Source of the DNA: Candidatus Margulisiibacteriota bacterium
GTDB lineage: Bacteria > Margulisbacteria > Riflemargulisbacteria > GWF2-35-9
Length of the DNA stretch: 64,000 nucleotides
Direction of reading: 5' to 3'
NCBI GenBank assembly: GCA_028715625.1
Contig: JAQURL010000002.1
Location: forward strand, 2,438 to 66,437
The notes beneath the pieces are model-generated. The model worked only from the letters and a program-made list of their open reading frames with translations, was not told the DNA's origin and did not search any database. Position 1 is the first letter of the stretch. Each line of letters begins with the position of its first letter. Position numbers and translations under genes: made by a program. Shown here piece by piece: positions 15,955 through 61,442 of the stretch.

Positions 15955-15972
15955 ACTATGCTAAGCGAGGGG

Positions 15973-35200: not shown

Positions 35201-38200
35201 GGATAAGGTTATTTTGTTCTCCCCCGCTGGCCAGGGGTTATTAACTTCGGTTGCCAGTGGTGTGTTATAAGATCCGTCAATTACCCGGTAATAATCATAA
35301 TTCGTAAGAGAGGAGTCCTTACTGATAACAAGATTTACTGTTAGCCATCTTGTGTATTCAGTTCTTTGATCCAGTGAATATATATATAGTCCCGGGTTCG
35401 TTGCCGCATCAATATTGACATTAAAGGTCGCTCCGTCAAAGATAACATCTGTATAATTCAATGCATTATCTGTTATACCAATCCTAAAATAGGCGTTACC
35501 GCTTGCTTCTGCCAAATTTGTATTATACGTTGCCAGCCAAACCGTTCGATAGTTGGAACTTAAAGGGTTGCTCATGGTTTCAGGTAAAACAGGAGTCAAA
35601 TCTACTGTAACCGTGCTGTAAAGACCAGGCAATAAAACCTGCCAAAAGGGGGTAACAATTGCCGCCTCAATATAAGCAGGATCCTGATAAGCAAGCTTGT
35701 TGGAAACCTCCATCTTGGCGGTCATCAAGCCCTTTGGCACTATCACATTGCTATATAAACCTTGAGACCCAACTTCGTCAGGTTGTATTCTGACTAATGG
35801 TTCTGTTGTGTCGTAATAAATGCTACAGGTTACGGATTCGGAAGATATAATACCCAAATCATTGGCAACCCACAAATATAGAAGCTTGGTTTCGTTTTTC
35901 TGACTATCAAATGTGTAATAATAATCTGTAGTCGGGTAGTCTGAAAAATTAGTTATATCCAGGTTTGGTGTGGCTTCCTCGGTAATCCAATATTTTTTCA
36001 CCTGTGAGTCTACATTAAAGGTAACCTTAACTTGATCTAATTTTGTATAATATTGATCTTCAGTTAACGGATTATACATTCTAAAATTTGTTGCCTGTGG
36101 CGGAGATGATGTTTTAATAATAAAATAGGAGTCCCCGTTTAAGCTTGTTGTTTTATTGCCGGCATTATCGAATACTGTTGTTTTGAAAATATACCACCCG
36201 TCCTCAAGTGAGCTGACATTAAATGTACAAAACCATTCTTGCATAGCTGGCATAAGGTTTACAAAGGTCTCAAGGTTTGGGCTGTTTAAATAGTAATATC
36301 CCAACATTGGTGTTATGGTAACTTCTTCTGAAAGTTGAAGTGTAACACTTACAATATCTGAGGTTATTAGGAATGGTTTAATGAAACTTCTGGCAATTGA
36401 ATAGCTTAAGGTGACTGTGGGCGCTGAAACATCAACTTTAATTTCCCTGGTGGCAATTGAACCGTTTCCGGCTCGATCCAGGGCGAATAAAAGAACATTG
36501 ATCGTGTCATGATTATTCGCACTTACCGATAATGTTGCTGTTAACTGCGATGTAAAATCAGAATAATCTACCTGGCCTGTGGACGCCTTATATTTATATG
36601 GTGCATCTCTTAATTGACCGTTTTCTATTGGTACATCCCAGGACAAAGTAATAACCGTCTGGCTGAACCAGCCTGGTAAAGGTAGAACAACCCCGTTAGG
36701 GATATCGGTATCAACAATTGGGGACTGCGCGATAATATCAAATGTGTTGATAATGGGTGGTGTTTTATCAATCTTAATATATAAATTTTTGGTTGTTAAA
36801 TTACCCGCTTTGTCCCGAACCTGTATATAGGCATCTCTCGTGTCGTCCCCTCCCTCAAGCACTCCCAATCCATTGTAGGCCAATTCGTTCTGCCAGTCTG
36901 TCCAGTTTTGTGTTGTTACAGACTTAAGCCTGTATGGTTTTGCTGGCAGTTGCCCGTCATCGTTTGATTGATTCCATTCCAGATTAATTTGTTCATTATC
37001 ATACCAACCACTTTCCGACAAATATCCGTTGCCATCACTATCAGTATTATCCGCCAATATATTAGCATAAAAAGATGCCGGATTTACCATGTCTACATAA
37101 ACATTGGTTGTCTTTTGCAGCACGTTACCTGCGTGGTCTGCTATGGCGCCGACAATATAGTGTGTTAAAGACCCGCCTTCGGTTGTATAAATACTGACAT
37201 CCTTAGAGTTTGTAAATCCCTGGCCGTATGTGGTCTTGCCCAGATCGTTTTTAATAAAATATTTTGCGCTTCTAAGGCCTAAACTATCCGTAACATTTTC
37301 AGAAATAAAAGAACAAAAAACATAATTATCCGAATACCACCCCAAATCAGGAGTAACTCCTCCGCGATGCGGGCCGTCGTCTTCTAGTTTAAGCGTATAG
37401 GATCCTGTGGGTAAAGTAACATCAACCGTCACAAAAACTGAATTTGTAACTATATTACCTGCTTCATCAGCACATTCTATAGAAATTTCATTTCTTATGT
37501 TGGCCGATACCTTAAAATTAGCTACCGTATTTTCTGCTTGCCAATTACCCCATCCATTGTTGTTAATTTTAATACGATAGGGTTTGTCTCTCAGTTTCCC
37601 CCCATCTATTGGCTGCTGCCAGCTTAAATCTATTGTATCATCATCGTACCAGCCAGGTTCAGGGTCTATACCGTCACCATTGCTGTCAGCATCCGGTACA
37701 AGGGTAATATTAAGATTTGATGGTGTTGTTACGTCGGCTTTTATATATTTGTTTATACTTTTAGTCCAACCAGCCTTATCTACAAATAACGCCGTAAAAA
37801 TAATGGGTGTATTATCCTGCGGTATAACTGTAAATTCCGAAAAAGTCGGATTTGAGGAGGGATTTTGACTATAAGAAACGTCTTTGTCGGTTTTCAGGTA
37901 TAGCCTGGATAATCCGGCACCGCCACTATCAATATCCCATGTCAGAACAATATTAAGGGTAGACTGATCATACCAGTTCGCATTTGGCAAAACACCATCG
38001 TTCTGGTTATCACTATCATCAGGAAGAAAATTAATATCGACAAAATTAAATGAAATCGGCGTCTCGCTTACATATACAATCCCTGATGTGGTCTGAATAT
38101 TTCCGGCTGCGTCTTTAGCAATTAATACAAATTCATTCCCGGTTAAAGATTCCGACGTTCCAACCATAACGTCTGAAATATTGGTCCAGTTTGATGTTGT

Positions 38201-39838
38201 TGAGTTCAGGCCTGACGTATTTCTATAGGCAAAAGGTTGATTTGGAAGTGCGCCGCCATCAGATACCGACCACATCCAGCGAACTTCCGACCCGTCATTG
38301 TACCAACCTTTTTCCGGCAACATTTGTCCATCAGCTTTATTTGTATCATCCATCAGTAGCAAATAATTTATTGTAGGAGGCTGAATATCAACTTTTACGT
38401 TTGCATATGCTTCCCTGACATTCCCTGCTTTATCTGCAGCCCTCACATAAACCGTTCTGTTTGTATTATTGCCTGGTTCAATATATAGGGCATTTGCATT
38501 CATCGTACTTTGAAATTGATTTATTGAAATAGTGTCTCCAATTTGAGCGGACCAATAGGGCCAACCTACATCGCTTTTTATTTGGTAAGGCTGATCTTTT
38601 AAGGCTGTGTCACTTGGTTGAGTCCAGCTAAAACTGACAGTTTCATCATTGTACCAGCCTTGTTCCGGTACTGACTGGGTTGGATTATTGTCCGTATCAT
38701 CTGCTATAGTTACATAAAAAGTCCCTGGCAGTGTCTGGTCTACATTTACCGTTATCGACATGGTTACATAGTTATAAACATTATCTAAAAGATACACAAC
38801 GATTTCACGGTCTGTGCCTTCCAGTGTTTTTATACTAACTGTGACGTTTGAGCTGGAATACAGCGATTGAACAATTGATTCATAATAAAACTGGCTTCTT
38901 ACGCCACTTCCGGTATTATCTGTAGCCAAATTGTTAATTTTCACAGAAACGGTTAGCTGGTCATACCAGCCTGTTTCTGGAAGGATACCGTCTCCACCGT
39001 TATCCGACAAATCTGGCAATAATTGAAAACTAGAACCGTTAATTGCCGGTGCCTGATTATCAATCATTATATTTTTGGTGTTTATATAAACCGTGTTATC
39101 GATAGTTGCATTTCCTTGAGGAAAAACCAGGTTAATTTTTAGCTCCACGTTTCTGCTAATACTTGCTGAGGTTGGTAGAACAAAATTATTGAAATCAAAC
39201 AAACCGCTTGTATTTATATTTACGACCGAACCCTCTGCTTTATTGTCAAAAAAAATCCTCGCCGATACATCCTGCAGTGGATAAATGTTCTGATTATACT
39301 TATATGTGACTTTGCCGCTACAATGCAACTGTTCGGCTGAACCTATTCCTCCTTTAAACCAGGTTCCCTCCGGACTTAGGTACATATATTTGGAATCGCA
39401 GGTGATGTTAAAAGTGTTTACAACAAACTGTTCGTTATAAGTTAGGTTATCGTTATAAATATAATCGTTACTGCCATCATAGCTGTTGATGGTTACAGAA
39501 TATATTCCATCTTGTATAAATGAATTTTGCCACTTAATTTTAAAATTCAAAGAACATTCAGACCCATATTTGCCTCCACTGAAACTATCAAGCAAATCAA
39601 AACCCTGTACAATAGTACATGTCGGTTGATTTGCAGGAGTATATATAACGACAATTTTATCTCCGATATTAATTGTCAGCGTGTCATCATCCGATTTCAG
39701 CTGGATTGCTTCATTTTGCATGATATTCATATAGTTTGTAGTAATTCCTGATGATTTGAAAACTACTTCACTTATGGAACCGTAACTGAATACTGCTAAA
39801 AAAAGAAAAAGGCTGATTAAACGTATTAGACGGGTCAT
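32270..39838 (-). CDS. giant (2,522 aa) multi-domain cell-surface protein with a C-terminal FlgD-Ig / T9SS-type sorting-like domain
   Basis: Signal peptide MTRLIRLISLFLFLAVFSYG. Eight tandem ~105-118-aa Ig-like repeats (aa ~258-1138), further beta-sandwich modules, three ~160-aa repeats (aa ~1705-2190), an FN3-like module (aa ~2305-2415), and a C-terminal ~100 aa NYPNPF...IEIKVYDSIGHFVKKF...VEWDGKDEAGEYVEKGGYFVVIEA. Confidence 0.8.
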   Translation of the reverse strand: MTRLIRLISLFLFLAVFSYGSISEVVFKSSGITTNYMNIMQNEAIQLKSDDDTLTINIGDKIVVIYTPANQPTCTIVQGFDLLDSFSGGKYGSECSLNFKIKWQNSFIQDGIYSVTINSYDGSNDYIYNDNLTYNEQFVVNTFNITCDSKYMYLSPEGTWFKGGIGSAEQLHCSGKVTYKYNQNIYPLQDVSARIFFDNKAEGSVVNINTSGLFDFNNFVLPTSASISRNVELKINLVFPQGNATIDNTVYINTKNIMIDNQAPAINGSSFQLLPDLSDNGGDGILPETGWYDQLTVSVKINNLATDNTGSGVRSQFYYESIVQSLYSSSNVTVSIKTLEGTDREIVVYLLDNVYNYVTMSITVNVDQTLPGTFYVTIADDTDNNPTQSVPEQGWYNDETVSFSWTQPSDTALKDQPYQIKSDVGWPYWSAQIGDTISINQFQSTMNANALYIEPGNNTNRTVYVRAADKAGNVREAYANVKVDIQPPTINYLLLMDDTNKADGQMLPEKGWYNDGSEVRWMWSVSDGGALPNQPFAYRNTSGLNSTTSNWTNISDVMVGTSESLTGNEFVLIAKDAAGNIQTTSGIVYVSETPISFNFVDINFLPDDSDNQNDGVLPNANWYDQSTLNIVLTWDIDSGGAGLSRLYLKTDKDVSYSQNPSSNPTFSEFTVIPQDNTPIIFTALFVDKAGWTKSINKYIKADVTTPSNLNITLVPDADSNGDGIDPEPGWYDDDTIDLSWQQPIDGGKLRDKPYRIKINNNGWGNWQAENTVANFKVSANIRNEISIECADEAGNIVTNSVFVTVDVTLPTGSYTLKLEDDGPHRGGVTPDLGWYSDNYVFCSFISENVTDSLGLRSAKYFIKNDLGKTTYGQGFTNSKDVSIYTTEGGSLTHYIVGAIADHAGNVLQKTTNVYVDMVNPASFYANILADNTDSDGNGYLSESGWYDNEQINLEWNQSNDDGQLPAKPYRLKSVTTQNWTDWQNELAYNGLGVLEGGDDTRDAYIQVRDKAGNLTTKNLYIKIDKTPPIINTFDIIAQSPIVDTDIPNGVVLPLPGWFSQTVITLSWDVPIENGQLRDAPYKYKASTGQVDYSDFTSQLTATLSVSANNHDTINVLLFALDRAGNGSIATREIKVDVSAPTVTLSYSIARSFIKPFLITSDIVSVTLQLSEEVTITPMLGYYYLNSPNLETFVNLMPAMQEWFCTFNVSSLEDGWYIFKTTVFDNAGNKTTSLNGDSYFIIKTSSPPQATNFRMYNPLTEDQYYTKLDQVKVTFNVDSQVKKYWITEEATPNLDITNFSDYPTTDYYYTFDSQKNETKLLYLWVANDLGIISSESVTCSIYYDTTEPLVRIQPDEVGSQGLYSNVIVPKGLMTAKMEVSNKLAYQDPAYIEAAIVTPFWQVLLPGLYSTVTVDLTPVLPETMSNPLSSNYRTVWLATYNTNLAEASGNAYFRIGITDNALNYTDVIFDGATFNVNIDAATNPGLYIYSLDQRTEYTRWLTVNLVISKDSSLTNYDYYRVIDGSYNTPLATEVNNPWPAGENKITLSYRIDNGTAVENALEGPKSLYVWTRKSLYINPGIVKKVITFDITIPTYSMQTDLYKQKDNLNYTETLRVTINFNEKMCDNPTPTIYIINEDEITTISSYELVFLKLNKSDYVYITTINVEGSDKQKNIYIKVIGDDMAGNRLIAREALRQKLVLQEYKDEVSIKQPYAEQGQKDFAFMSFTVSANDKPVHLKGIRILAYGHYVASDISQFTIYKDGDDNGLFEPRKKYDVIVGVSDKELDNTHVVYIPFYEDEIIVSSNKKKFFVAADIGAGAVKGNTMYLQYATKNVCQVNDNEMVDYSIDPYNTFKTKTVTFVKPISRVYINNMDDSDLNPTFNQGADLATIKKLKLYTDVGSVVWSGMKISYTGSLDNSNFSQIAIYKDGDYNGIFNKDIDVLISNGNDRFESGKNTITVNFKINQALTNESDNDTYYIVGAVGINAPIGTTFSMRIVTANDIYIETPNIVVDSSFPVNSIPFNIQKYTSKIDVTHNNNKQEDVYQGDRIVLQKFNLTVDYFNPKLRSIDYLLDGTAIKSDFNDIAIYTLSRNQTYNSSYFELTDASKLDAVNTWMDSDKKVRIQFANPYELSSSNSFALVATVSPTANIDKQFVFRTTYYITTANPYVIFQNGTAKADKTITTNTVLIIDAFRPSQPIISGNYYSQYVQKIGIDYDSYTKNGNNIVGVKYYIGSTKEGTDIATYTEKALATPRSLLIDEPLNIENIILEDNKKYFIMLNTISERTDNPSVKYYSKTSYFEFKTDFSPPHLPNYPPSVVISDTDVNNITHQITWGDFLEEESGIGKFIVEEKSNYSPSWSVVKENYISDPASIKSSDRLAVMYNRKPNMSYTYRIKAQNLAGLLSDYIYTNSVTTVETNKVLSHVSNYPNPFYSRKEKTKLFYFLNQDTGIEIKVYDSIGHFVKKFTFTGGLQGKSVKGDCEVEWDGKDEAGEYVEKGGYFVVIEAPEAKGEVTKVVRMVGVVH
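33269..34726 (-). repeat. three ~160-aa coding repeats in the giant surface protein
   Basis: Units share Q-G-x-(D/R)...(F/I)-x-(L/F)...ending in SQFTIYKDGDDNGLFEP, SQIAIYKDGDYNGIFNK and NDIAIYTLSRNQTYNSS. Confidence 0.5.
36425..39067 (-). repeat. eight tandem coding repeats (~105-118 aa each) in the giant surface protein
   Basis: Each unit opens with (L/V)P-x-x-GWY(D/N) followed by a P(Y/F)-x-(I/Y/L)K element. Examples: PETGWYDQ, PEQGWYNDETVSFSWTQP..DQPYQIK, PEKGWYNDG..NQPFAYR, PNANWYDQ, PEPGWYDDD..DKPYRIK, PDLGWYSDN, SESGWYDNE..AKPYRLK, LPGWFSQ..DAPYKYK. Most units close with D-x-AGN (ADKAGN, KDAAGN, VDKAGW, ADEAGN, ADHAGN, RDKAGN, LDRAGN). The repeats are diverged at the DNA level. Confidence 0.8.
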
Positions 39839-39841
39839 AGA

Positions 39842-40642
39842 TTATGTTTTATTAGGCTCTTCTTTTAATATTGGCTCAATAAAACCGTCTCTCTCCAGAT
39901 TTTTGGATAGTTCTATTATATATTGCTGTGATTTATTAATATCAGACTTGGAATATTTGTTCTTTCCCAATTCTATACCCTGTTGCACTATGTTTTTTAC
40001 TCCTTTTGGCAACACATCATAAAGGCGGCTTATTTGTTCCTGAGGCTGATGACAAAAAGCTATAGACAGGATATCGCTCTGTATCTCTGAAAAAATTCTG
40101 AGAAAATCCTTTTCGCTAACCTTAAATAAATCTTCGAACATAATCATTATACCTCTAAAATCTTTTTCGTTTTCAGGATATTTAACCTTATAAACATTTG
40201 ATAAATTAATTTTTTGATCAATATCGAGATATTCCAGAATTTTCGCCAGAACATATTTGCCTCCAAACTGCTCTGTAAGTAATCTTCTTAAGATTTTATC
40301 AAAATTTTCGATTTCTTTTTTTGTATATTGAATCAGAGACATCAATTCAGAAATTATTATGGCTTTTATATCATCCTGAAATTCCTCAAGAATTTTTTCA
40401 GCAATTTCTGGCCTGACTGATGATATGACCAGACAAACATATTTTAAGTTTTCCGGTTTTGCTCCCAGAATTTTTTTTAAAACATGAGCTGTATGATATG
40501 AGTTATATTCATTTATATAAGTAAAAAAATTCTGGGGCTGGGTTATATTCTGGTCTATTGGCTTCTCCATTTGTATAGAATCCTTTATATCATCTCTGGT
40601 TACTTTATTGGCTTTATTTACAGGCTTAACTTCTTTACTCAT
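39842..40642 (-). CDS. FliG-like protein (middle + C-terminal domains only, no FliF-binding N-domain)
   Basis: 266 aa. KPENLKYVCLVISSVRPEIAEKILEEF resembles FliG-M EHPQTIALILSxLxPxxAAxIL. FGGKYVLAKILEYL matches the GG linker region. IMIMFEDLFKVSEKDFLRIFSEIQSDILSIAF resembles MFVFEDIxxLDDRSIQxxLREVDxxxLAxAL. DINKSQQYIIELSKNLERDGFI resembles VEEAQQKIVxxxRRLEEAGEI. 8-nt overlap with the upstream gene. Confidence 0.7.
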   Translation of the reverse strand: MSKEVKPVNKANKVTRDDIKDSIQMEKPIDQNITQPQNFFTYINEYNSYHTAHVLKKILGAKPENLKYVCLVISSVRPEIAEKILEEFQDDIKAIIISELMSLIQYTKKEIENFDKILRRLLTEQFGGKYVLAKILEYLDIDQKINLSNVYKVKYPENEKDFRGIMIMFEDLFKVSEKDFLRIFSEIQSDILSIAFCHQPQEQISRLYDVLPKGVKNIVQQGIELGKNKYSKSDINKSQQYIIELSKNLERDGFIEPILKEEPNKT

Positions 40643-42131
40643 GACTTATTCTTATAAATCCTTCCTTCTCTAAATTTTGTGACATAGTAATAACCTTCTG
40701 CCGCGCTTGTTCCACATCATATCTTGAAGCAGTGTTGGTTTTCAGATTTAGCCACTGATCCACCATTGCCTGTACTCCCTTGGGCAATCTATCGGTAATC
40801 TTCCTCTGCAAGGTTGAGTCTATGTGTACCAGTGATGTGGCGATTACTTCGGTGTCTATGTCCTTAAAAATAGTTGCCAAGCTGTCTTCGTCCAATTCTA
40901 AAATGTCCTCAAACAGCACAATCAGAGAGTTTAGTTCGTCGGCAACTGCCGGGTACTGTTTTTGAATGATACGCAAAATTTTCTTTTTGTCTTCACCTGA
41001 AATTTTCTCCATAATTTGCTGTAACCGATATTTCCCACCGAAAAGATAATCAATGTTGCTTTTAATTTCTTCTTCCAAAACAGCCATATCTTTTTCGGGA
41101 TAATGTTGGAGATTTATTAGGTTATTACAAATTTCCGATTGAATTTTTATTGGATATTCTATTAGTATCGATGCCGCCAGTTTAAATGGCAAACAAGCCA
41201 TTACCACCGCTATTGTACGTGGTGATGCCTGTTGTAGTGCGATTTTAACCTGTAACAAAAATTTTAATTTATAAATATTTTCTTCATTAATAAAATTGAA
41301 ATAACGAATTCCATTGCCCAGAATGTTTTTATTCATTATTTCTATCTTTTCTTCTTCCTCTTTTTTCTTTTTCTCATCTTCCAGCATTTTTTTCTGTTCG
41401 TCAGTTGATTCAGGCTTAACCTCCCCTGCTCCCTTTGCTGCTATGTATTGGGTGGGTTCTTCAGTGCCTATTGGTTCTTTCTTCTTCCCCTTGAATAATA
41501 ACCTCCAGATAATTACCAGAAAAATTATACCGGCTAAAGCAGCCACAGCTAAGATAACTGCATTGAGCAAGCTGAACTTGCTTCTGGTCGTAAGTTTTTG
41601 TTTTGATAAAGCTTCTTTTCTTTCCAGTTCGCTAAAGTTTTCCTTTAAAATTGTAAGCTTGTCTCCTTTTTCCTCATCCAGATTTAAAAATTTTGTTACG
41701 AAAAGTTTCAGGCTTCTTAGTTCTCCCAATTTGATTTTTGAGTCCAGAATGATTATAACTTCCTTGTTTTTGATGATTGGGGATTTTTCTATTACTTCAT
41801 AATTCAAAGGCAGAGAGTTTTCGCCTCCCGCACCTTCTGTTAAAAAACGTAATGAGGGTATTCCTGGCACAATTGTGCTTTGTTTTTTTGTTCCGCCCAT
41901 GTTTTCCACACCCTCAATTTCCGGTATTTTTGTGTAGTTTATTTCCCATTTTGTTTCTTCGGCAATTAGAGAAATATAAACTATAGATTTCCCCTCACCC
42001 AAAATTTTATTTAAAGCAGATTGAACCGTATCTTCCAAATGCTTTTGAAGCATGAGTGTGCCTTGAGATTGGGAATAGGAAAATTGCAGTATAAAAATTA
42101 GCGGCAATAACAGCCTTAAAAACTTCCTCAA
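40635..42131 (-). CDS. chimeric membrane protein: FliF/SctJ-like ring-building periplasmic domain, TM, K/E linker, FliG-like (M+C) cytoplasmic domain
   Basis: 498 aa. TTG start with a GGGGG SD 5 nt upstream. Hydrophobic leader aa 5-20, periplasmic aa ~22-185 (LEDTVQSALNKILGEGKSIVYISL; EVIIILDSKIKLGELRSLKLFVTKFLNLDEEKGDKLTILKENF), TM aa ~186-212, K/E-rich linker, then a FliG-like region aa ~270-498 (ASPRTIAVVMACLPFKLAASILIEYP; FGGKYRL; LIVLFEDILELDEDSLATIFKDIDTEVIATSL; YDVEQARQKVITMSQNLEKEGFI). Confidence 0.65.
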   Translation of the reverse strand: MRKFLRLLLPLIFILQFSYSQSQGTLMLQKHLEDTVQSALNKILGEGKSIVYISLIAEETKWEINYTKIPEIEGVENMGGTKKQSTIVPGIPSLRFLTEGAGGENSLPLNYEVIEKSPIIKNKEVIIILDSKIKLGELRSLKLFVTKFLNLDEEKGDKLTILKENFSELERKEALSKQKLTTRSKFSLLNAVILAVAALAGIIFLVIIWRLLFKGKKKEPIGTEEPTQYIAAKGAGEVKPESTDEQKKMLEDEKKKKEEEEKIEIMNKNILGNGIRYFNFINEENIYKLKFLLQVKIALQQASPRTIAVVMACLPFKLAASILIEYPIKIQSEICNNLINLQHYPEKDMAVLEEEIKSNIDYLFGGKYRLQQIMEKISGEDKKKILRIIQKQYPAVADELNSLIVLFEDILELDEDSLATIFKDIDTEVIATSLVHIDSTLQRKITDRLPKGVQAMVDQWLNLKTNTASRYDVEQARQKVITMSQNLEKEGFIRISHE

Positions 42132-42220: not shown

Positions 42221-42265
42221 AAGATAATAAAAAGGATTGATATTAATTCATCTATCAATCCTTTT
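42221..42265 (-). terminator. rho-independent terminator after ssb
   Basis: Perfect 13-bp stem (42230-42242 AAAAGGATTGATA / 42253-42265 TATCAATCCTTTT) with a 10-nt loop. On the minus strand it is followed by TATTATCTT. It lies 12 nt downstream of the ssb stop. Confidence 0.6.
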
Positions 42266-42276
42266 TAAATTTATAG

Positions 42277-43234: not shown

Positions 43235-45541
43235 ATGTTTTCAAGATTTACTCAAAAAGCTATACAAGTCATTATGTTTGCTCAGGAAAAAGCAAAAAAA
43301 ATAAAGATTCCTTTTATAAATAATGAATTGCTTTTATATGGAATTTTAAAAACTGATGACCCTTTGATTATTACAGCGCTGAATAAAGTCGGCATTGATA
43401 TCAATTATTTCAGAAGTATCATCCAGAAACACCTGCAAAACCAAAAAGGGACCTATAAAAACGAAACCATTCCTTTTTCTCCTCAGGTTAAGCTCACTTT
43501 GTCTCAGGCTTGGGATGAAGCCCGTCAACTAGGTCATAACCATGTTTCTGTGGAGCATTTATTTCTGGCGATACTAAAGGATTCTTCTCCCGGCATTACA
43601 AATGTTATCATTGAAGCGAATATTGATATTTTAAAGATTAGAAACGCTATTTTGGAGGTTCTTGGTGAAAGCTATTCTGCCTCCACGCTTCCTCCGGAAG
43701 AAGTTCGGCCGCAGACACCTACACTTGATTTATATAGTTTGGATCTAACCTTGCTGGCCAAAGAAAACAAGTTGGATCCGGTTATCGGTAGAGAATTTGA
43801 AATTAAAAGAATTATCCAAATCTTAAGTCGACGAAACAAGAACAATCCGGTTTTGACAGGTGAAGCTGGGGTTGGTAAAACGGCAATTGTTGAAGGTCTT
43901 GCTCAACGCATAGTTAATGCACAGGTCCCTCCAAATTTGCTAAATAAAAGAGTTGTAACGCTGGATCTGGGACTACTGGTAGCCGGGACACGTTTTCGGG
44001 GTGAATTTGAAGAAAGAATTAAAAAAATTCTGGACGAAATTAAGAACGACAAAACTACTGTTTTGTTTATTGACGAGCTACATACAATTATAGGCACGGG
44101 TAACTCGGAAGGTTCTCTAGACGCAGCCAATATGTTAAAACCTGCTTTGGCGCGTGGTGAAATACAGTGCATTGGCGCAACAACACTTAATGAGTTTCGT
44201 AAGACAATTGAAAATGACGCTGCTCTGGAAAGACGTTTTCAATCTATTCTTATTGACCCCCCTACTCCTGAAGAAACACTGGAAATTCTCAAGGGTCTCA
44301 GAAAAAGATATGAAGATTACCATAAGGTAACGATTACAGATGAGGCTCTGGAAGGAGCTGTCTATTATTCTTCCCGCTATATCACCAATCGTCAGTTACC
44401 TGATAAGGCGGTTGACCTTATCGATGAGGCAGCTTCCACTGAGATGTTGGAAGCATCCAAAACAAATTTATTGCAAAACAAACCCAAAAAAGAAATACTG
44501 GTAACCAGAGAATCAATTATCAGTGTTGTTTCCATTTGGACCGGAATACCCCTGAAAGAGCTTTCCCAGTCTGAAGCCGCTCGCTTAAAAAATATGGCTG
44601 AAGATATTGCCAAACATGTTATAGGTCAAACAGAAGCCATTCAGGCACTGTCCAAATCCATCAAGCGGACCAAAGCCGGCTTGAAAGATCCCAAAAGACC
44701 TACGGGTTCATTTTTGTTCCTGGGCCCCAGCGGTGTCGGTAAAACTGAGCTGGCCCGCCAGCTGGCAAAATATTTATTCGGCAAAGAGGATGCCATAGTT
44801 CGTATTGACATGAGTGAATATACCGAAAAGCACACTATTTCCCGATTAATCGGCTCTCCACCCGGATATGTAGGCTACAACGAAGGCGGTCTTTTGAGTG
44901 AGCCTGTTAGAAAAAAGCCTTATTCTATCGTTCTTTTTGATGAAATTGAAAAAGCCCATCCGGAAGTAATTAATTTGTTGCTGCAGATTATGGAAGACGG
45001 TCGATTGACTGATTCCACGGGGAAACTTGTTGACTTTAAAAATACCATTGTAATTATGACCTCTAATGTAGGAGCTAAAACTATTGAAAACACATCTTCC
45101 TTCGGTTTCCGCACAACTCAGGATGACAAAGCTGATTACGAACGCATGAAAGAAAAAATAATGGGTGAAATAAAGGAAGCTTTCAGCCCGGAATTTATCA
45201 ACCGTATTGATGATATAATAATTTTTAAAGCATTAACTAAGGAATATCTTGGACAGATTGCCCAGCTTTTTCTTGATGATTTGAACACAAGAGTTAAAGA
45301 TAAAGAGCTAATCATAAAGCTTTCTCAAGCTGCATTGGACTTTTTAATAGATAAAGCCTATGTGCCAAACAAGGGTGCTCGTTTGTTGCGTAAAGTAATA
45401 CAAGATAATATCGAAGACAAGATAGCTGATTTGTTAATTGATAAAGATTCCATTCAAAATTCCACTATCCTGGTAGATGCTAAAGATAAAGAATTGAAAT
45501 TCACTGTTAAAACAAAAAAAACCCCTAAACCGGCTAATTAA
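43235..45541 (+). CDS. clpC: ATP-dependent Clp protease ATP-binding subunit (ClpC/ClpA-type, two AAA+ modules)
   Basis: 768 aa. Double Clp_N repeat, Walker [16 protein letters not shown] and [15 protein letters not shown], the signature [23 protein letters not shown], and an FGF tripeptide at the position of the ClpP-docking loop. I recognised no long ClpB-type middle domain and no clear UVR motif. Confidence 0.85.
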
Positions 45542-46265
45542 CGGTTACTTTTTCATTTAAATAAATATTGATTTCCACTCGTCTGTTCTTTGCTTTATCC
45601 TCATCGGTATCATTAGGAACAATGGGTCTGTACTCTCCATAACCGATAGCATGCATCTTGAGCGGGGACATTTTAACTTCGTTTACCATATATTTTATTA
45701 CTGAATAAGCCCGGTCAAATGACAGATCCCAGTTTGAATCGTATTTGTCGGTGTGGATAGGAACAGTATCTGTATGACCTTCAATATCAATGGGGTTTTT
45801 TACCTTCATTAAAATTTGACCTATGTCACTAAGTATTCCTTTGGCAGATTCCTTCAATTCCGCATGCCCGCTGTCAAAAAGAATCGGTTGTTGCAAGATA
45901 ATTCTGATTTTCTTTTCCTCCAAAATGACACTGATATAATCATTTAGTTTTTCATTATTGACCAGGGTGATGATTTCTTTGGCAATCTTGAGTTCTGCCT
46001 TTTCTTCCTGAACTGCTGATTTTTGTTTCTCTGCAACAGTTTCCTTTTTCAAAACCTTTTTTTCTTCCACCACTTTTTTGAAATTGTCGCTGATTTTTTT
46101 TAAAAATTCTTCGTATGTTGTGCCTTGTGTTTTAGATACATATTGGGAGGCAAATACGAATAATAAAATAAAAAAACATAATAACTGCGACATCAAGTCG
46201 CCGAACATTACAAATCCGATCGGGCTCTCGCCTTCCTCGTGTTGTATTTTTTTTCTTTTACTCAT
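45534..46265 (-). CDS. motB: flagellar-type stator protein MotB (OmpA-like C-terminal domain)
   Basis: 243 aa. An N-terminal plug/TM region carries the conserved Asp (FVMFGDLMSQLLCFFILLF). C-terminal OmpA/MotB fold (IEGHTDTVPI...SNWDLSFDRAYSVIKYM...GYGEYRPIVPNDTDEDKAKNRRVEI). Confidence 0.85.
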   Translation of the reverse strand: MSKRKKIQHEEGESPIGFVMFGDLMSQLLCFFILLFVFASQYVSKTQGTTYEEFLKKISDNFKKVVEEKKVLKKETVAEKQKSAVQEEKAELKIAKEIITLVNNEKLNDYISVILEEKKIRIILQQPILFDSGHAELKESAKGILSDIGQILMKVKNPIDIEGHTDTVPIHTDKYDSNWDLSFDRAYSVIKYMVNEVKMSPLKMHAIGYGEYRPIVPNDTDEDKAKNRRVEINIYLNEKVTVN

Positions 46266-47042
46266 TTAGTTTGCTTTTGTACTTTTACCAATATCTGAAA
46301 AGTTGAGGTAACTTAATAAATATTTTTCAACTTTTATAGGTACTTCTCCTTTTGCTATGAACAATATTCCTTCAGCCATCATTCGCTTAAGGCTGGCCTC
46401 CTCATCGCTCATGATTCTGAGTTTCTGGGCTATCGGATTAAAAATCATCCCTGAAAAAAATCCTCCGTAAAATGTAGCGATAAGACCAAGCGCCATGGCT
46501 CGCCCCAGCTGAGATGGATCGGCCATGTTCCTTAGAACCTGTATCAACCCGATAACCGTACCTACCATGCCTGCAACCGGTGCAACAACTGAGGTGTTTT
46601 TATTAACCGTTATCAGAATATTATGCCTCTCCTGCATCTCTTCTATACTGTTATAAAGGGCCGCTCGGATAAACGGTTCCTGAAATCTTTCTACAACAAG
46701 CGTTATCCCATATTGAATGAAAGGGTCTTTAATTTTTTCTATCTCTGTCATTAAGGATGCTTTTCCGCTCTCCAGCGAAATTCTTGATAAATCCACAATT
46801 AACTTAATTGCGTCCTGCGGATCCATCTTTTTTTGGGGAATCATAATAAAAGTCATTGATTTAAAATATGATTTCAGGTTTTTAAATTTCGTTCCGAAAA
46901 TGATAGAGAAAACACAACCCCCCAAGACTATCATGCCAGCAGGTACATGGAAATAATTCTGGGGATTATGTATTAACTCCGGCACGCCGATAAATACAAT
47001 TAAAAACATGACAACAGGCGCTAAAATGACATTCCATTCCAT
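46266..47042 (-). CDS. motA: flagellar-type stator protein MotA (MotA/TolQ/ExbB proton-channel family)
   Basis: 258 aa, four TMs, with VAPVAGMVGTVIGLIQVL and MALGLIATFYGGFFSGMIFNPIAQKL, which resembles MotA TM3/TM4. Directly abuts motB. Confidence 0.8.
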   Translation of the reverse strand: MEWNVILAPVVMFLIVFIGVPELIHNPQNYFHVPAGMIVLGGCVFSIIFGTKFKNLKSYFKSMTFIMIPQKKMDPQDAIKLIVDLSRISLESGKASLMTEIEKIKDPFIQYGITLVVERFQEPFIRAALYNSIEEMQERHNILITVNKNTSVVAPVAGMVGTVIGLIQVLRNMADPSQLGRAMALGLIATFYGGFFSGMIFNPIAQKLRIMSDEEASLKRMMAEGILFIAKGEVPIKVEKYLLSYLNFSDIGKSTKAN

Positions 47043-50715: not shown

Positions 50716-50922
50716 ATGACCAAGGATGCTTTTCCTGAAGACTTTTTGCAAACCAAAGATGAATTGAAGAAGCTTTTGGCTCATGCTCTTCCAAAAATAA
50801 AGGAATTAAATGCCAAGCAAAAATCTGGTGATGATTTAACTGCTGTCCAGCAAGCAGCGCTAGTAAAATATAAACGTATTATTTTTCTGTTGAAGGCTTC
50901 AAAAAAAATTAACTTATTTTAG
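50716..50922 (+). CDS. small hypothetical helical protein (68 aa)
   Basis: ORF only (MTKDAFPEDFLQTKDELKKLL...), with no recognisable family. It follows lepB closely, and its stop overlaps the stop of the convergent flagellar-family gene. Confidence 0.3.
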   Translation: MTKDAFPEDFLQTKDELKKLLAHALPKIKELNAKQKSGDDLTAVQQAALVKYKRIIFLLKASKKINLF

Positions 50923-55927: not shown

Positions 55928-55951
55928 AACTATCTCCTTTTAAATCTGCTT

Positions 55952-58318: not shown

Positions 58319-58332
58319 CTTAAGACTCCTCT

Positions 58333-59046: not shown

Positions 59047-59047
59047 T

Positions 59048-60091: not shown

Positions 60092-60098
60092 GCATATT

Positions 60099-61214: not shown

Positions 61215-61442
61215 TTATAATCCTCCTAGTTTAATATTTTATTATATATAAAAGCTACGAATTACTCATACATACTGTTTATAAGTGGAAAAAATTAAAA
61301 ATTAGAGACTATTATCATTAAAGTTTATCCACAAACTAAACTCTTTTTCCTCCTTGTTATCCCGTATTTTTATATAACTTTAATTGTTTTTATATTTATT
61401 AAGAAATTATTAACAGGATATAAATATAAAAACATAAAAAAT
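61215..61442. other. candidate oriC (AT-rich dnaA-dnaN intergenic region with DnaA boxes)
   Basis: 228-nt non-coding, extremely AT-rich spacer. It contains one perfect TTATCCACA box, a 2-mismatch box at 61284-61292 (AGTGGAAAA), and A/T runs that could act as an unwinding element. Confidence 0.6.
61325..61333 (+). promoter_or_regulatory. consensus DnaA box
   Basis: Exact TTATCCACA read directly at 61325-61333. Confidence 0.75.

What the first reader, a model, noticed from the sequence alone, without database searches (positions are those of the whole stretch)
40635..42131. Natural FliF-like/FliG-like fusion with a miniature periplasmic domain and apparently non-canonical torque-helix residues
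**Architecture read from the sequence**
- TTG start.
- Hydrophobic leader (LLLPLIFILQFSYS).
- About 165 periplasmic residues.
- One TM (LLNAVILAVAALAGIIFLVIIWRLLF).
- K/E-rich linker (...EQKKMLEDEKKKKEEEEKIE).
- About 230 aa that align by eye along the whole FliG middle and C-terminal domains.

**FliG-like matches**
- ASPRTIAVVMACLPFKLAASILIEYP against EHPQTIALILSYL..AA.IL.
- The FGGKY Gly-Gly region.
- LIVLFEDILELDEDSLATIFKDID against MFVFEDILKLDDRSIQLVLREVD.
- YDVEQARQKVITMSQNLEKEGFI against VEEAQQKIINIIRRLEEAGEI.

**FliF-like match**
The periplasmic stretch EVIIILDSKIKLGELRSLKLFVTKFLNLDEEKGDKLTILKENF mirrors the end of the FliF periplasmic region (..VaVvvD....l..i..lV..avGfd..RGD.v.V....F).

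**Why it is unusual**
Canonical FliF is about 550 aa with a roughly 400-aa periplasmic ring, and it binds FliG non-covalently through FliG-N. Here FliG-N is replaced by a covalent link.

In my by-eye alignment, the positions of the E. coli FliG stator-interacting charges (R281, D288, D289, in the MSxRAAxxLxDDL helix) read LPKGVQAMVDQWL. The Arg and the acidic pair are therefore not evidently conserved, which argues against a canonical torque-generating FliG.
Basis: partly seen in the sequence, partly recalled or inferred. Interest (0 to 1): 0.8.

Follow-up and report, generated by a model that had tools for sequence, protein, structure and literature searches.

The report
Natural single-chain FliF–FliG motor rotor
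This gene fuses the ring-forming end of the flagellar membrane-ring protein FliF to the torque-receiving part of FliG; it belongs to a conserved, undescribed gene module in Margulisbacteria with its own MotA/MotB ion motor and a giant surface protein.

Summary
The ORF lies on the minus strand (40635-42131, 498 aa, TTG start). It encodes a signal peptide, a roughly 140-aa periplasmic domain, one TM helix, a flexible K/E-rich tether, and FliG middle and C-terminal domains.

The periplasmic domain is a FliF RBM3 (S-ring/beta-collar) fold. This rests on Foldseek matches (E about 3e-8) and a transitive profile link. RBM1, RBM2 and FliG-N are absent.

The canonical torque-helix charges are replaced: R281 by G452, D288 by Q459 and D289 by W460. 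All three replacements are invariant in the family. MotA's partner residues R90 and E98 are also lost.

It is not a frameshift artefact:
- 23 close homologues (Margulisbacteria) share the architecture.
- So do most of about 75 more distant cluster representatives, some from Elusimicrobiota.

Gene order is conserved: fusion, then a FliG-MC paralogue, then motA-motB (sometimes displaced or unseen), then a roughly 2,500-aa secreted protein.

A FlgE/F/G-like gene also lies in the window. In a relative, its orthologue sits beside FliM, FliN, FliOPQR and FlhB.

Best reading: a single-chain rotor subunit of a flagellum-derived ion-driven motor. What it turns is unresolved. No publication describing it was found. 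Interest is high.

The parts
40635..42131 (-). Whole ORF: single-chain FliF(RBM3)-TM-tether-FliG(MC) protein, 498 aa, TTG start
42066..42131 (-). aa 1-22: basic n-region, 11-residue hydrophobic core and small-residue c-region. Probably a cleavable Sec signal peptide; this is inferred, as no SignalP run was possible.
   Evidence: Leader pattern conserved in 20 of 23 homologues. Too short to score as a TM helix in the hydropathy scan.
41631..42053 (-). aa 27-167: periplasmic FliF RBM3-like (S-ring plus shortened beta-collar) domain. It includes the invariant PGIPSL loop (nt 41850-41867) and the C-terminal GDKLTILKENF strand.
   Evidence: AF2 models. Foldseek top 18 hits are all FliF RBM3, E about 3e-8. 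hhalign chain.
41493..41570 (-). aa 188-213: the single transmembrane helix, the equivalent of FliF TM2
   Evidence: Hydropathy. AF2 helix 188-213.
41337..41492 (-). aa 214-265: K/E-rich flexible tether that replaces the FliF C-terminal tail and FliG-N
   Evidence: pLDDT below 50 for aa 214-241. Length 45-101 aa and only 31% identity across the family.
41046..41336 (-). aa 266-362: FliG middle (ARM-M) domain. Of the EHPQR motif only the Pro is kept (ASPR...N).
   Evidence: Pfam FliG_M 32.5 bits. Alignment to E. coli and T. maritima FliG.
40638..41045 (-). aa 363-498: FliG C-terminal domain, including the conserved Gly-Gly (G365/G366)
   Evidence: Pfam FliG_C 56.7 bits. 1qc7 TMt 0.87 and rmsd 1.9 A; 8ucs_H TMt 0.84.
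40731..40787 (-). aa 449-467: torque-helix equivalent, LPKGVQAMVDQWLNLKTNT, with G452, Q459 and W460 in place of R281, D288 and D289
39842..40642 (-). Soluble FliG-MC paralogue, 266 aa, with no TM and no FliG-N. Its start overlaps the fusion's stop by 8 nt, suggesting translational coupling. It follows the fusion in 12 of the 13 Margulisbacteria loci; in L010 the contig ends before it.
   Evidence: Pfam FliG_C 47.5 bits. 3ajc E 1.2e-8. Synteny.
32270..39838 (-). Giant secreted protein, 2,522 aa: signal peptide, Ig-like repeats, FN3 and a FlgD-Ig-like C-terminal domain. It starts 3 nt after the paralogue. It is collinear at 28-45% identity in relatives. Its C-terminal 650-880 aa are also conserved in the giant proteins next to distant fusions.
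46266..47042 (-). MotA-type stator A subunit, 258 aa. P173 and P222 are kept. R90 is Leu and E98 is Met.
   Evidence: Pfam and NCBIfam. Alignment. Inside the operon in 6 distinct relatives' loci.
45534..46265 (-). MotB-type stator B subunit, 243 aa, with plug, the conserved channel Asp (D32 equivalent) and an OmpA-like peptidoglycan-binding domain
50919..51782 (-). Possible further component: a flagellar FlgE/F/G-subfamily axial protein, 287 aa, with no signal peptide
   Evidence: TIGR03506 148.7 bits (cut-off 70.25). Pfam LlgE_F_G_D1 43.8 bits. Its orthologue in L023 sits in a FliM-FliN-FliOPQR-FlhB operon.
14728..16545 (+). Possible further component: a PorV/PorQ-family outer-membrane protein (408 aa) followed by a TPR protein (195 aa). 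Together they are homologous to the single PorV-TPR protein encoded directly upstream of the fusion in distant lineages.
   Evidence: tblastn E 4e-52. PorV_fam 79.8 bits here and 116.5 bits (above the cut-off of 90) in L019.
42229..42266 (-). Hairpin plus T-run after ssb. The fusion gene appears to begin its own transcription unit.
   Evidence: Read directly from the sequence. Not picked up by the consensus scan.

Best explanation
**What it is**
The gene encodes a single-chain rotor subunit of a flagellum-derived, ion-driven rotary motor.

**Proposed topology and assembly**
- After Sec export and probable signal-peptide cleavage, the RBM3 domain sits in the periplasm. By analogy with FliF RBM3 and SpoIIIAG, it oligomerises into a roughly 30-mer S-ring with a short beta-collar.
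- One TM helix anchors each subunit in the inner membrane.
- A 45-100-aa flexible K/E-rich tether holds one FliG middle plus C-terminal module per subunit under the membrane. This gives a built-in 1:1 FliG ring without FliG-N or the FliF C-terminal tail.
- This is the natural counterpart of the laboratory Salmonella FliF-FliG 'deletion fusion', which is still motile.

**Proposed drive**
- MotA5B2-type stator units are anchored to peptidoglycan by the MotB OmpA domain. They are driven by ion flow through the conserved MotB Asp.
- They push on the FliG-C torque helix and turn the ring.
- The interface is re-wired. The canonical charge pairs (MotA R90 with FliG D289, MotA E98 with FliG R281) are absent on BOTH partners. 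Invariant Gly, Gln and Trp take their place on FliG.

**Partners**
- A co-translated soluble FliG-MC paralogue probably completes the cytoplasmic ring.
- The rotor operon always carries a giant secreted Ig-repeat protein.

**Shown versus inferred**
- Shown:
  - the domain identities;
  - conservation of the architecture;
  - the operon linkage with motAB, the paralogue and the giant protein;
  - the residue substitutions.
- Inferred:
  - ring formation;
  - rotation;
  - stator engagement;
  - signal-peptide cleavage.
- Unresolved: what the rotor drives. Two options remain:
  - a reduced flagellar axial structure exported by a flagellar type III system, as suggested by the FlgE/F/G-like gene here and the FliMN-FliOPQR-FlhB operon in a relative;
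  - the giant surface protein.
For: **FliG part**
- Pfam FliG_M and FliG_C score above their cut-offs.
- T. maritima FliG-MC matches at E 1e-20.
- Foldseek hits are FliG only. 1qc7 gives rmsd 1.9 A, and stator-bound FliG 8ucs_H gives TMt 0.84.

**RBM3 part**
- Foldseek top 18 hits are all FliF RBM3/S-ring, E about 3e-8, probability 1.00. SpoIIIAG is next.
- hhalign A2 to A7: 99.3%, E 2e-20. A7 to E. coli FliF 238-430: 91.9%, E 6.9e-7, with LPGIP aligned on FliF vPGAL.
- 24 of 77 family members hit Pfam YscJ_FliF_C directly.

**Purifying selection on both domains, with a free linker**
- Identity is 64.5%, 74.6% and 64.6% for the domains against 31% for the linker. Linker length is 45-101 aa.

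**Operon linkage across 13 Margulisbacteria loci**
- Gene order fusion, paralogue, motA-motB, giant protein: 6 distinct loci.
- motAB 3-4 kb upstream beyond clpC: 4 loci, including this window.
- motAB not seen within the held flanks: 3 loci.

**Same association in distant lineages**
- L019: giant protein, PorV-TPR protein, fusion, MotA, MotB.
- L020 (Elusimicrobiales): giant protein, TPR, histidine kinase, MotA, fusion, a 398-aa protein, MotB.
- The C-terminal regions of the giant proteins are homologous across phyla, E 3e-44 and 9e-23.

**Stator competence**
- MotB D32 and MotA P173 and P222 are conserved. The best NCBIfam matches are flagellar MotA, MotP and PomA.

**Precedent**
- Vibrio FliF-FliG fusions assemble S-rings (PMC11481574; PDB 8z4d seen).
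Against: - No direct evidence exists for ring formation or rotation.
- RBM1 and RBM2, which in flagella surround the export gate, are missing. No separate RBM1/2 protein was found.
- All five FliG charged residues implicated in stator contact are changed. MotA R90 and E98 are also changed, so the interface cannot be inferred from E. coli.
- The FliM-binding EHPQR motif is not kept.
- In this window motAB is not in the operon. It is only 35-38% identical to the in-operon MotA of relatives, so it could be a different stator paralogue.
- Three Margulisbacteria loci show no motAB within the held flanks.
- The N-domain of this protein gives no significant direct hit to FliF by HMMER or by single hhalign. 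The assignment rests on a medium-confidence model (pLDDT 67.5) plus a transitive profile link.
Confidence: 0.6

Rival explanations
1. It is simply the FliF+FliG of an otherwise ordinary, if divergent, flagellum of Margulisbacteria. On this view two adjacent ancestral genes, fliF and fliG, fused and lost RBM1/2 and FliG-N. The giant neighbouring gene would be an accessory or unrelated to motor output.
For: - A bona fide FlgE/F/G-subfamily gene lies in the window and on the same scaffold as the fusion in L013.
- Its 56%-identical orthologue sits in the operon FlgE-like, FliM-like, FliN/Y, FliO, FliP, a 286-aa ORF, FliQ, FliR, FlhB.
- FlbD-MotA-MotB lies near a distant fusion in L022.
- FlgV homologues, which co-occur with flagellar genes, are reported in Margulisbacteria (PMC11607428).
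- Searches seeded with the fusion turned up no canonical FliG or FliF labelled Margulisbacteria. This is weak evidence.
- Laboratory deletion fusions work in a real flagellum (PMC6445934).
Against: - In none of about 20 loci does the fusion sit beside flgB, flgC, fliE, fliH, fliI or other flagellar genes. It always sits beside a giant secreted protein whose C-terminal region is conserved across phyla.
- Distant members are flanked by PorV-TPR outer-membrane proteins.
- RBM1/2, EHPQR and the torque-helix charges are lost.
- Whether these genomes encode flagellin, FlhA, FliI, rod proteins or L/P rings could not be tested.
Confidence: 0.25
2. It is a non-rotating envelope ring. The RBM3 domain would form a SpoIIIAG-like periplasmic channel or scaffold used to export or anchor the giant protein. 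The FliG-like ARM domains would be only a cytoplasmic adaptor. MotAB would act as a generic PMF energiser or anchor in the manner of ExbBD and TolQR.
For: - SpoIIIAG, a non-rotating channel ring, is the next-best structural match (E 2.5e-4).
- The canonical stator-contact charges are absent on both FliG and MotA.
- The invariant neighbour is a secreted giant protein with a FlgD-Ig / T9SS-CTD-like C-terminal domain. PorV-family proteins accompany the module.
- The Chlamydiaceae FliF-FliG fusion is thought to work with a secretion system rather than a motor (PMC4768692).
Against: - The FliG-C domain, whose only known role is stator contact, is retained at 64.6% identity. Its fold superposes on stator-bound FliG.
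- The stators are of the flagellar MotA/PomA type rather than the ExbB/TolQ type (NCBIfam E 1e-44 against 6e-3), and they have a MotB plug.
- FliF ranks about 4 orders of magnitude better than SpoIIIAG.
Confidence: 0.12
3. It is an artefact: a sequencing or assembly frameshift that joined two genes, or a decaying remnant of flagellar genes.
For: None found. The only oddities are the TTG start and a public gene call that begins at Met27.
Against: - The same uninterrupted architecture occurs in 23 close homologues and in most of about 75 further cluster representatives, from independent assemblies and samples.
- Conservation is domain-specific, and many residues are invariant.
- The gene is translationally coupled to the next gene.
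Confidence: 0.01

Closest known systems
Canonical flagellar MS-ring protein FliF plus rotor/switch protein FliG (E. coli, Salmonella, T. maritima)
   Same: - The periplasmic domain has the FliF RBM3/S-ring fold, including the conserved (V/I)PG loop and the C-terminal (R)GD...F strand.
- It is followed, as in FliF, by the second TM helix.
- The cytoplasmic part has the FliG ARM-M, Gly-Gly and C-terminal six-helix domain with a torque helix.
- MotA/MotB stators are encoded alongside.
   Different: - It is one polypeptide instead of two.
- RBM1 and RBM2 (Pfam PF01514) are missing.
- The FliF C-terminal FliG-binding tail and FliG-N are missing, replaced by a disordered K/E-rich tether.
- EHPQR is reduced to the Pro.
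- K264, R281, D288, D289 and R297 are replaced by V, G, Q, W and S.
- It scores 59 bits against the 226.7-bit cut-off of the FliG equivalog model TIGR00207.
- Its operon partners are a FliG-MC paralogue and a giant secreted protein rather than fliE and fliH.
Engineered FliF-FliG fusions: the Salmonella full-length and 'deletion' fusions (PMC6445934, PMC6079021) and the Vibrio FliFG fusion (PMC11481574, PDB 8z4d/8z4g)
   Same: - FliF is covalently linked to FliG at 1:1 stoichiometry.
- The Salmonella deletion fusion likewise lacks the FliF C-terminal tail and FliG-N, yet still assembles flagella and rotates.
- The Vibrio fusion assembles 34/35-mer S-rings.
   Different: - Those fusions are laboratory constructs that keep RBM1 and RBM2 and the canonical charged torque helix.
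- This one is natural, conserved across at least two phyla, keeps only RBM3, and has a re-wired torque helix.
Chlamydiaceae natural FliF-FliG fusion (CT719 family; Bergeron 2016, PMC4768692)
   Same: It is a naturally occurring short FliF fused at its cytoplasmic end to a FliG-like domain, in a lineage with only a few flagellar genes.
   Different: The Chlamydia protein is the mirror image.
- It keeps RBM2 (SctJ-like) plus an uncharacterised RBM-like segment and LACKS the SpoIIIAG-like RBM3.
- It carries only a FliG-M-like region.
- No dedicated MotAB is described for it.

Here RBM3 is the only periplasmic domain, both FliG-M and FliG-C are present, and MotAB is linked.
SpoIIIAG (sporulation feeding-tube ring, PDB 5wc3)
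   Same: It has the same RBM3-type fold with a beta insertion, and it is the second-best structural match (E 2.5e-4).
   Different: SpoIIIAG scores about 4 orders of magnitude worse than FliF. It has no FliG module and no stator partners. Its context is Firmicutes sporulation.
GldLM/PorLM motor with SprB-type giant adhesins and PorV (Bacteroidota type IX secretion and gliding). This is a functional analogy only.
   Same: - A 5:2-type ion-driven motor is encoded with a giant cell-surface repeat protein.
- That protein carries an Ig-like C-terminal domain (FlgD_ig / Por_Secre_tail-like).
- PorV-family outer-membrane proteins are also present.
   Different: - There are no GldL, GldM, GldK or GldN homologues.
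- The motor is MotAB with a FliF/FliG-type ring.
- The C-terminal domain did not reach the T9SS sorting-domain models.
- Any functional link is untested.

Membership tests
FliG (flagellar rotor/switch protein) | FliG C-terminal domain (PF01706) present | tested here: met
   56.7 bits against a cut-off of 23.3. 1qc7 TMt 0.87, rmsd 1.9 A.
FliG (flagellar rotor/switch protein) | FliG middle domain (PF14841) present | tested here: met
   32.5 bits against a cut-off of 25. Aligned over the whole M domain of T. maritima FliG.
FliG (flagellar rotor/switch protein) | FliG N-terminal domain (PF14842), which binds the FliF C-terminal tail | tested here: not met
   No hit. The region before FliG-M is a disordered K/E-rich tether.
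FliG (flagellar rotor/switch protein) | Scores above the curated equivalog cut-off (TIGR00207, 226.7 bits) | tested here: not met
   59 bits
FliG (flagellar rotor/switch protein) | Conserved charged residues of the torque helix and its surroundings (E. coli K264, R281, D288, D289, R297) | tested here: not met
   The residues are V435, G452, Q459, W460 and S469. G452, Q459 and W460 are invariant in 23 sequences.
FliG (flagellar rotor/switch protein) | EHPQR motif that binds FliM | tested here: not met
   The motif reads A-S-P-R ... N. Only P127 (P304) is kept.
FliG (flagellar rotor/switch protein) | Conserved Gly-Gly hinge (E. coli G194/G195) | tested here: met
   G365/G366 within LFGGK. G366 is invariant and G365 nearly invariant.
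FliF (flagellar MS-ring protein) | RBM1+RBM2 / SctJ-homology region (PF01514 YscJ_FliF) | tested here: not met
   No hit at E<=1. Only about 140 folded periplasmic residues are present. Of 77 family members, only the 2 canonical FliFs carry PF01514.
FliF (flagellar MS-ring protein) | RBM3 / S-ring plus beta-collar domain (PF08345 YscJ_FliF_C) | tested here: met
   - By structure: the top 18 Foldseek hits are all FliF RBM3, E about 3e-8.
- By transitive profile: A2 to A7 at E 2e-20, and A7 to E. coli FliF 238-430 at E 6.9e-7.
- 24 of 77 family members hit PF08345.
- Caveat: this protein has no direct Pfam or HMMER hit, and the model pLDDT is 67.5.
FliF (flagellar MS-ring protein) | Two membrane-spanning segments flanking the periplasmic region | tested here: inconclusive
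   The C-terminal TM is clear. The N-terminal segment has only an 11-residue hydrophobic core followed by AxA-like sites, so it looks like a cleavable signal peptide. No dedicated predictor was available.
FliF (flagellar MS-ring protein) | C-terminal cytoplasmic helix that binds FliG-N non-covalently | tested here: not met
   It is replaced by the covalent tether.
FliF (flagellar MS-ring protein) | Assembles into a ring of about 33-34 subunits that houses the export gate and rod | not testable with these tools
   This needs expression plus EM, or multimer modelling.
Chlamydiaceae-type FliF-FliG fusion (PMC4768692) | Keeps RBM2, lacks the SpoIIIAG-like RBM3, and has only a FliG-M-like cytoplasmic domain | tested here: not met
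   The domain content is the opposite: RBM3 only, with FliG-M plus FliG-C.
MgtE N-terminal domain family (PF03448) | Best match is to MgtE_N rather than to FliG | tested here: not met
   MgtE_N 14.7 bits (cut-off 25.9) against FliG_C 56.7 bits. The MgtE structure appears only at Foldseek E 0.67.
Flagellar MotA/MotB stator (the neighbouring genes) | MotB channel Asp (D32), MotA P173 and P222, plug, OmpA-like peptidoglycan-binding domain | tested here: met
Flagellar MotA/MotB stator (the neighbouring genes) | MotA R90 and E98, which pair with FliG D289 and R281 | tested here: not met
   Leu and Met in this window. Gln and Glu in the in-operon type of relatives.
Type IX secretion / gliding apparatus | GldK/L/M/N and SprA core, and a T9SS sorting-domain model hit on the cargo | tested here: inconclusive
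   - PorV/PorQ-family proteins are present: 79.8 bits here (below the cut-off of 90) and 116.5 bits in L019.
- The C-terminal domain of the giant protein matches FlgD_ig (22 bits, below cut-off) and FlgD models, but no T9SS sorting-domain model.
- No GldKLMN-like gene was seen in the window.
- The rest of the genome was not available.

The most novel reading that the evidence does not exclude
The module may not be part of a flagellum at all. It would then be a new kind of envelope-spanning rotary machine. A flagellar-type stator (MotAB) would turn a minimal one-protein FliF(RBM3)-FliG rotor. That rotation would move, tension or export a giant Ig-repeat cell-surface protein through PorV-TPR-type outer-membrane partners. 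This would be a surface-motility, adhesion or secretion engine convergent with the GldLM/SprB system of Bacteroidota, present in Margulisbacteria, Elusimicrobiota and unclassified lineages.
Probability: 0.3. Interest if true: 0.92.

Novelty: new variant of a known kind. Interest (0 to 1): 0.8.

Why it matters
- **A natural minimal rotor.** The protein consists of the S-ring domain, one TM helix, a tether and FliG-MC. It shows which parts of the MS-ring/C-ring junction evolution itself has found dispensable: RBM1/2, the FliF tail, FliG-N, EHPQR and the charged torque-helix residues. It mirrors 30 years of laboratory FliF-FliG fusion work.
- **A re-wired stator-rotor interface.** Charged residues are lost on both FliG and MotA at the same time, and an invariant Gly/Gln/Trp set takes their place. 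This gives a directly testable alternative to the electrostatic model of torque generation.
- **A possible new output for a flagellar motor.** The rotor, the stator and a giant secreted protein are linked across phyla, and distant members also have PorV-TPR partners. This points either to a very divergent flagellum in the sister phylum of Cyanobacteria or to flagellar motor parts re-used for a non-flagellar machine. Either outcome bears on how the flagellum was assembled from, or dismantled into, modules.
- **A tractable structural target.** Because the rotor is a single protein, it should be unusually easy to express and study.

Tried and rejected
**Searches that found nothing or were not significant**
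1. The direct sequence route from the N-domain to FliF failed:
   - Pfam at E<=1 gave no FliF family.
   - A HMMER profile of the Margulisbacteria N-domains against all PDB sequences gave only noise.
   - hhalign of that profile against E. coli FliF aligned the right 31 residues but at E 0.15.
   - The link became significant only through the structure model and the intermediate TPR-type subfamily.
2. The window's own protein is not in the contig index, so its source record could not be retrieved.
3. Ten literature searches found only engineered fusions and the Chlamydia case, and nothing on this module.
   - The Termititenax genome paper was not held.
   - The supplements of the FlgV paper do not mention Margulisbacteria.

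**Ideas tested and dropped**
4. MgtE-N-type fold: rejected.
5. Frameshift or artificial join: rejected by the family-wide architecture.
6. I first placed D458 opposite D288. Residue-numbered mapping showed that D458 aligns with R287 and that D288/D289 are Q459/W460.
7. The 197-aa ORFs of L023 (FlgD position) and L027 (between the paralogue and the giant protein) are not homologous. No other link was found between the flagellar operon and the fusion operon.
8. The roughly 830-aa proteins downstream of distant fusions showed almost no mutual BLAST similarity and none to the Margulisbacteria giant protein.

**What could not be done**
9. I could not establish whether genomes with the fusion also carry canonical fliF, fliG, flhA, fliI or flagellin.
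10. Cluster look-ups gave no taxon for the canonical FliF and FliG hits.

Full report
**1. The observation**

The ORF is at 40635-42131 on the minus strand, 498 codons, with a TTG start. A GGGGG run lies 7 nt before the TTG. A 14-bp hairpin followed by Ts (42229-42266) separates it from the upstream ssb gene, so it appears to head its own transcription unit.

A public gene call for this protein starts at Met27 (472 aa). However, 20 of 23 homologues carry the extra N-terminal segment. That segment has basic residues, a short hydrophobic core, and small residues such as VNA|Q, VSA|Q and SYS|Q. I therefore accept the TTG start and read the segment as a probable cleavable Sec signal peptide. This is an inference, as no signal-peptide predictor was available.

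A hydropathy scan finds one strong TM segment at aa 188-213. The following 52 residues contain 13 Lys and 13 Glu.

**2. The cytoplasmic half is FliG-MC**

- Pfam gives FliG_M at 32.5 bits (cut-off 25) and FliG_C at 56.7 bits (cut-off 23.3). MgtE_N reaches only 14.7 bits.
- Against all PDB sequences, the last 236 residues match T. maritima FliG-MC (3ajc, 1lkv, 4fhr) at E 1e-20 to 2e-19 along both domains. They also match FliG from H. pylori, A. aeolicus and Salmonella.
- A full-length AlphaFold model has mean pLDDT 67.4, with the FliG part at 70-90. It shows the TM helix at 188-213 and a disordered stretch at 214-241.
- In Foldseek against the PDB, all 31 hits with E<=1e-3 are FliG or FliF:
  - 1lkv: E 2.8e-9.
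  - FliG-C 1qc7: TMt 0.87, rmsd 1.9 A.
  - 8ucs_H, FliG-C bound to the MotAB stator: TMt 0.84.
  - MgtE: only E 0.67.

The MgtE-N alternative is rejected.

**3. The periplasmic half is FliF RBM3**

Direct sequence searches did not see this. Three other lines of evidence did.

- *Structure.* An AlphaFold model of aa 1-190 has pLDDT 67.5, with the core strands and helices at 80-90. Its topology is helix, two strands, a poorly modelled beta insertion, two strands, helix, strand. Foldseek against the PDB returned FliF RBM3/S-ring structures for all 18 top places (Salmonella 8zds, 8ftf, 8t8p, 6scn, 6sd1; Vibrio 8z4g) at E 3e-8 to 3e-7 and probability 1.00. SpoIIIAG followed at 2.5e-4, and everything after that was noise.
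- *Family search.* An exhaustive HMM search of 1.84 billion cluster representatives with the N-domain profile found 76 proteins. Of the 77 sequences scanned (the query plus these 76), 63 carry FliG_C, 48 FliG_M and 24 hit Pfam YscJ_FliF_C, the RBM3 model. Only two carry YscJ_FliF (RBM1/2), and those two are canonical FliFs at the tail of the list.
- *Profile-profile comparison.* The Margulisbacteria N-domain profile matches the TPR-type subfamily at 99.3% probability, E 2e-20. That subfamily matches E. coli FliF residues 238-430 at 91.9%, E 6.9e-7. The family's invariant (L)PGIP loop falls on FliF's conserved vPGAL, and RGD..L.I....F falls on RGDSLNVVNSPF.

The domain is therefore a shortened RBM3. 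RBM1 and RBM2 are absent.

**4. Non-canonical functional residues**

Residue-numbered alignment to E. coli FliG gives the following:

| E. coli FliG | This protein |
|---|---|
| K264 | V435 |
| R281 | G452 |
| D288 | Q459 |
| D289 | W460 |
| R297 | S469 |
| E125-H126-P127-Q128, R160 | A-S-P-R, N |
| G194/G195 | G365/G366 (kept) |

- G452, Q459 and W460 are invariant in the 23-sequence family.
- Across the wider family the R281-to-Gly change is nearly universal. The TPR-type/Elusimicrobiota branch keeps an acidic pair (EE) at positions 288/289.
- On the stator side, MotB keeps the channel Asp (D32) and MotA keeps P173 and P222.
- MotA R90 and E98, the partners of FliG D289 and R281, are Leu and Met here. 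In the in-operon MotA of relatives they are Gln and Glu.

The charge pairs are thus missing on both partners.

**5. Not an artefact**

- Twenty-three homologues at 52-68% identity have the same architecture.
- Identity is 64.5% in RBM3, 74.6% in FliG_M and 64.6% in FliG_C. It is only 21-31% in the signal peptide, TM and tether.
- Tether length ranges from 45 to 101 aa.
- The stop codon overlaps the next gene's ATG by 8 nt.

**6. Genomic context**

Downstream, on the same strand, lie the following genes:

- A 266-aa soluble FliG-MC paralogue (Pfam FliG_C 47.5 bits; 3ajc E 1.2e-8).
- Three nucleotides further, a 2,522-aa protein. It has a signal peptide, Ig-like repeats, an FN3 domain and a FlgD-Ig-like C-terminal domain.
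- Then tatD and a GspF/PilC-like gene.

Upstream lie ssb, hup and clpC (opposite strand). Beyond clpC lies a motA-motB pair of the flagellar type.

Thirteen loci from Margulisbacteria were compared, drawn from Marinamargulisbacteria, Riflemargulisbacteria, Termititenax and GWF2_35_9. The order fusion, paralogue, giant protein holds wherever the contig extends far enough. The position of motA-motB varies:

| Position of motA-motB | Loci |
|---|---|
| Between the paralogue and the giant gene | 6 distinct loci |
| Just beyond clpC | 4 loci (this window, L004, L009, L010) |
| Not seen in the held flanks | 3 loci |

The giant proteins are collinear at 28-45% identity.

A divergent second clade occurs in Margulisbacteria (L027, GCA_001784515.1). 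Its order is a CheY-like receiver, the fusion, a FliG-C-like protein, a 197-aa ORF, then a 3,722-aa Kelch-repeat giant.

Distant fusions show the same theme:

- L019: a 16,931-aa protein, a PorV-family-plus-TPR protein, the fusion, MotA, MotB.
- L020 (Elusimicrobiales): a giant protein with FlgD_ig/Por_Secre_tail, a TPR protein, a histidine kinase, MotA, the fusion, a 398-aa coiled-coil protein, MotB.
- L021: PorV genes and CTD cargo genes, a TPR protein, the fusion.
- L022: a TPR protein, the fusion, a 1,190-aa protein, and FlbD-MotA-MotB close by.

The C-terminal 650-880 residues of the window's giant protein are homologous to those of the L019 and L020 giants, at E 3e-44 and 9e-23. The PorV-TPR protein has a split homologue in this window at 14728-16545 (tblastn E 4e-52; PorV_fam 79.8 bits).

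A profile search with the TPR-type members found at least 45 further proteins of 600-690 aa. All but a few short canonical FliGs at the tail share the RBM3-FliG(M, C)-TPR architecture. They are annotated only as 'TPR protein [bacterium]' or 'FliG C-terminal domain-containing protein [Elusimicrobiota]'.

**7. Other flagellar genes**

The rest of the window is housekeeping. It includes dnaA, dnaN, recF, gyrB and gyrA, so it lies next to the replication origin.

There is one exception. The gene at 50919-51782 (minus strand) encodes a 287-aa FlgE/F/G-subfamily axial protein with no signal peptide (TIGR03506 148.7 bits against a cut-off of 70.25).

- It has about 30 close homologues, several of them named Margulisbacteria.
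- One lies on the same scaffold as the fusion in GWF2_35_9.
- Its 56%-identical orthologue P0120 sits in this operon: a 197-aa ORF, the FlgE-like gene, a FliM-like gene, FliN/Y, FliO, FliP, a 286-aa ORF, FliQ, FliR, FlhB.

So at least some relatives encode a flagellar type III export gate and C-ring proteins. I could not test whether the genomes with the fusion also have canonical fliF and fliG, flhA, fliI, proximal-rod genes or flagellin.

**8. Interpretation**

The best-supported reading is a single-chain rotor subunit. It would form an RBM3 S-ring in the periplasm, a TM anchor, and one tethered FliG-MC per subunit. MotA/MotB stators would drive it through a re-wired interface.

Experimental precedent shows such a design can work. 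[quoted passage not shown] Vibrio FliFG fusions form 34/35-mer S-rings (PMC11481574).

The only published natural FliF-FliG fusion I found is the Chlamydiaceae protein. It keeps RBM2, lacks RBM3 and has only FliG-M, so it is the mirror image of this one (PMC4768692).

What the rotor drives is open. I give 0.6 to the rotor-and-stator reading as a whole. Within it, two options stand roughly level:
- It is the basal body of a divergent flagellum.
- It is a separate machine coupled to the giant surface protein.

A non-rotating ring or secretion scaffold gets 0.12. An artefact gets 0.01.

**9. Novelty**

Ten full-text searches found no description of an RBM3-only FliF-FliG fusion or of its module. 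Database names are generic.

I class it as a new variant of a known kind, the flagellar rotor. A substantial minority chance (about 0.3) remains that the module is a new type of machine.

Noticed in passing
window 50919-51782 (-): A lone flagellar FlgE/F/G-subfamily gene (287 aa, no signal peptide) lies between lepB and ychF, with no other flagellar gene beside it. In a relative (L023) the orthologue heads a FliM-FliN-FliO-FliP-(286 aa)-FliQ-FliR-FlhB operon. Its Pfam N- and C-terminal rod motifs score below cut-off, so this is a divergent Margulisbacteria-specific subfamily of about 30 members.
   Followed up: yes
window 39842-40642 (-): A second, soluble FliG-MC paralogue (266 aa) is translationally coupled to the fusion by an 8-nt overlap. 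It is only about 27% identical to the fusion's FliG part, and its torque helix is even more degenerate (G, Q, G). It follows the fusion in all the Margulisbacteria loci whose contigs extend far enough, but it is absent from the distant TPR-type loci.
   Followed up: partly
window 32270-39838 (-): A 2,522-aa secreted protein carries repeated 'GWY(D/N)' Ig-like modules, an FN3 domain and a FlgD-Ig-like C-terminal domain with an NYPNPF motif. Its C-terminal third is conserved in giant proteins next to distant fusions, including one of 16,931 aa in L019.
   Followed up: partly
window 14728-16545 (+) and 2020-3189 (-): Two PorV/PorQ-family outer-membrane proteins (79.8 and 33.3 bits, both below the cut-off of 90) are present, plus a small TPR protein. 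This lineage is not known for type IX secretion. In distant lineages the PorV and TPR parts form one protein encoded directly upstream of the fusion.
   Followed up: partly
window 45534-47042 (-) compared with L002 12427-13922: Margulisbacteria have two MotAB types: one inside the rotor operon and one beyond clpC, as here. MotA is only 35-38% identical between them and MotB 43-49%. The fusions in the same genomes are about 56-60% identical. Either the stator genes moved and evolved fast, or they are different paralogues.
   Followed up: partly
window 53471-62843 (-): dnaA, dnaN, recF, a DciA-like gene, gyrB and gyrA lie in a row. The window therefore lies next to the chromosomal replication origin.
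   Followed up: no
window 25254-30398 (+): A 1,714-aa ORF has no family assignment (only a sub-threshold DUF2460 match) and no homologue in any fetched locus.
   Followed up: no
window 30395-32265 (-): tatD and a GspF/PilC/ComGB-like platform gene follow the giant gene with 4-nt spacing or overlap, so they may be co-transcribed with the rotor operon here. They are not conserved at this position in relatives.
   Followed up: partly
L027 9216-13030 (GCA_001784515.1) and L019 18684-19481: A single-domain CheY-like receiver lies directly upstream of a divergent fusion in L027, and a PilZ-domain protein lies near the fusion in L019. These are hints that the motor is under chemotaxis-like or c-di-GMP control.
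   Followed up: no
L023 13852-14712: A 286-aa signal-peptide protein with no family match is inserted between fliP and fliQ. It is a candidate for the missing periplasmic ring component (an RBM1/2 substitute). This was not tested.
   Followed up: no
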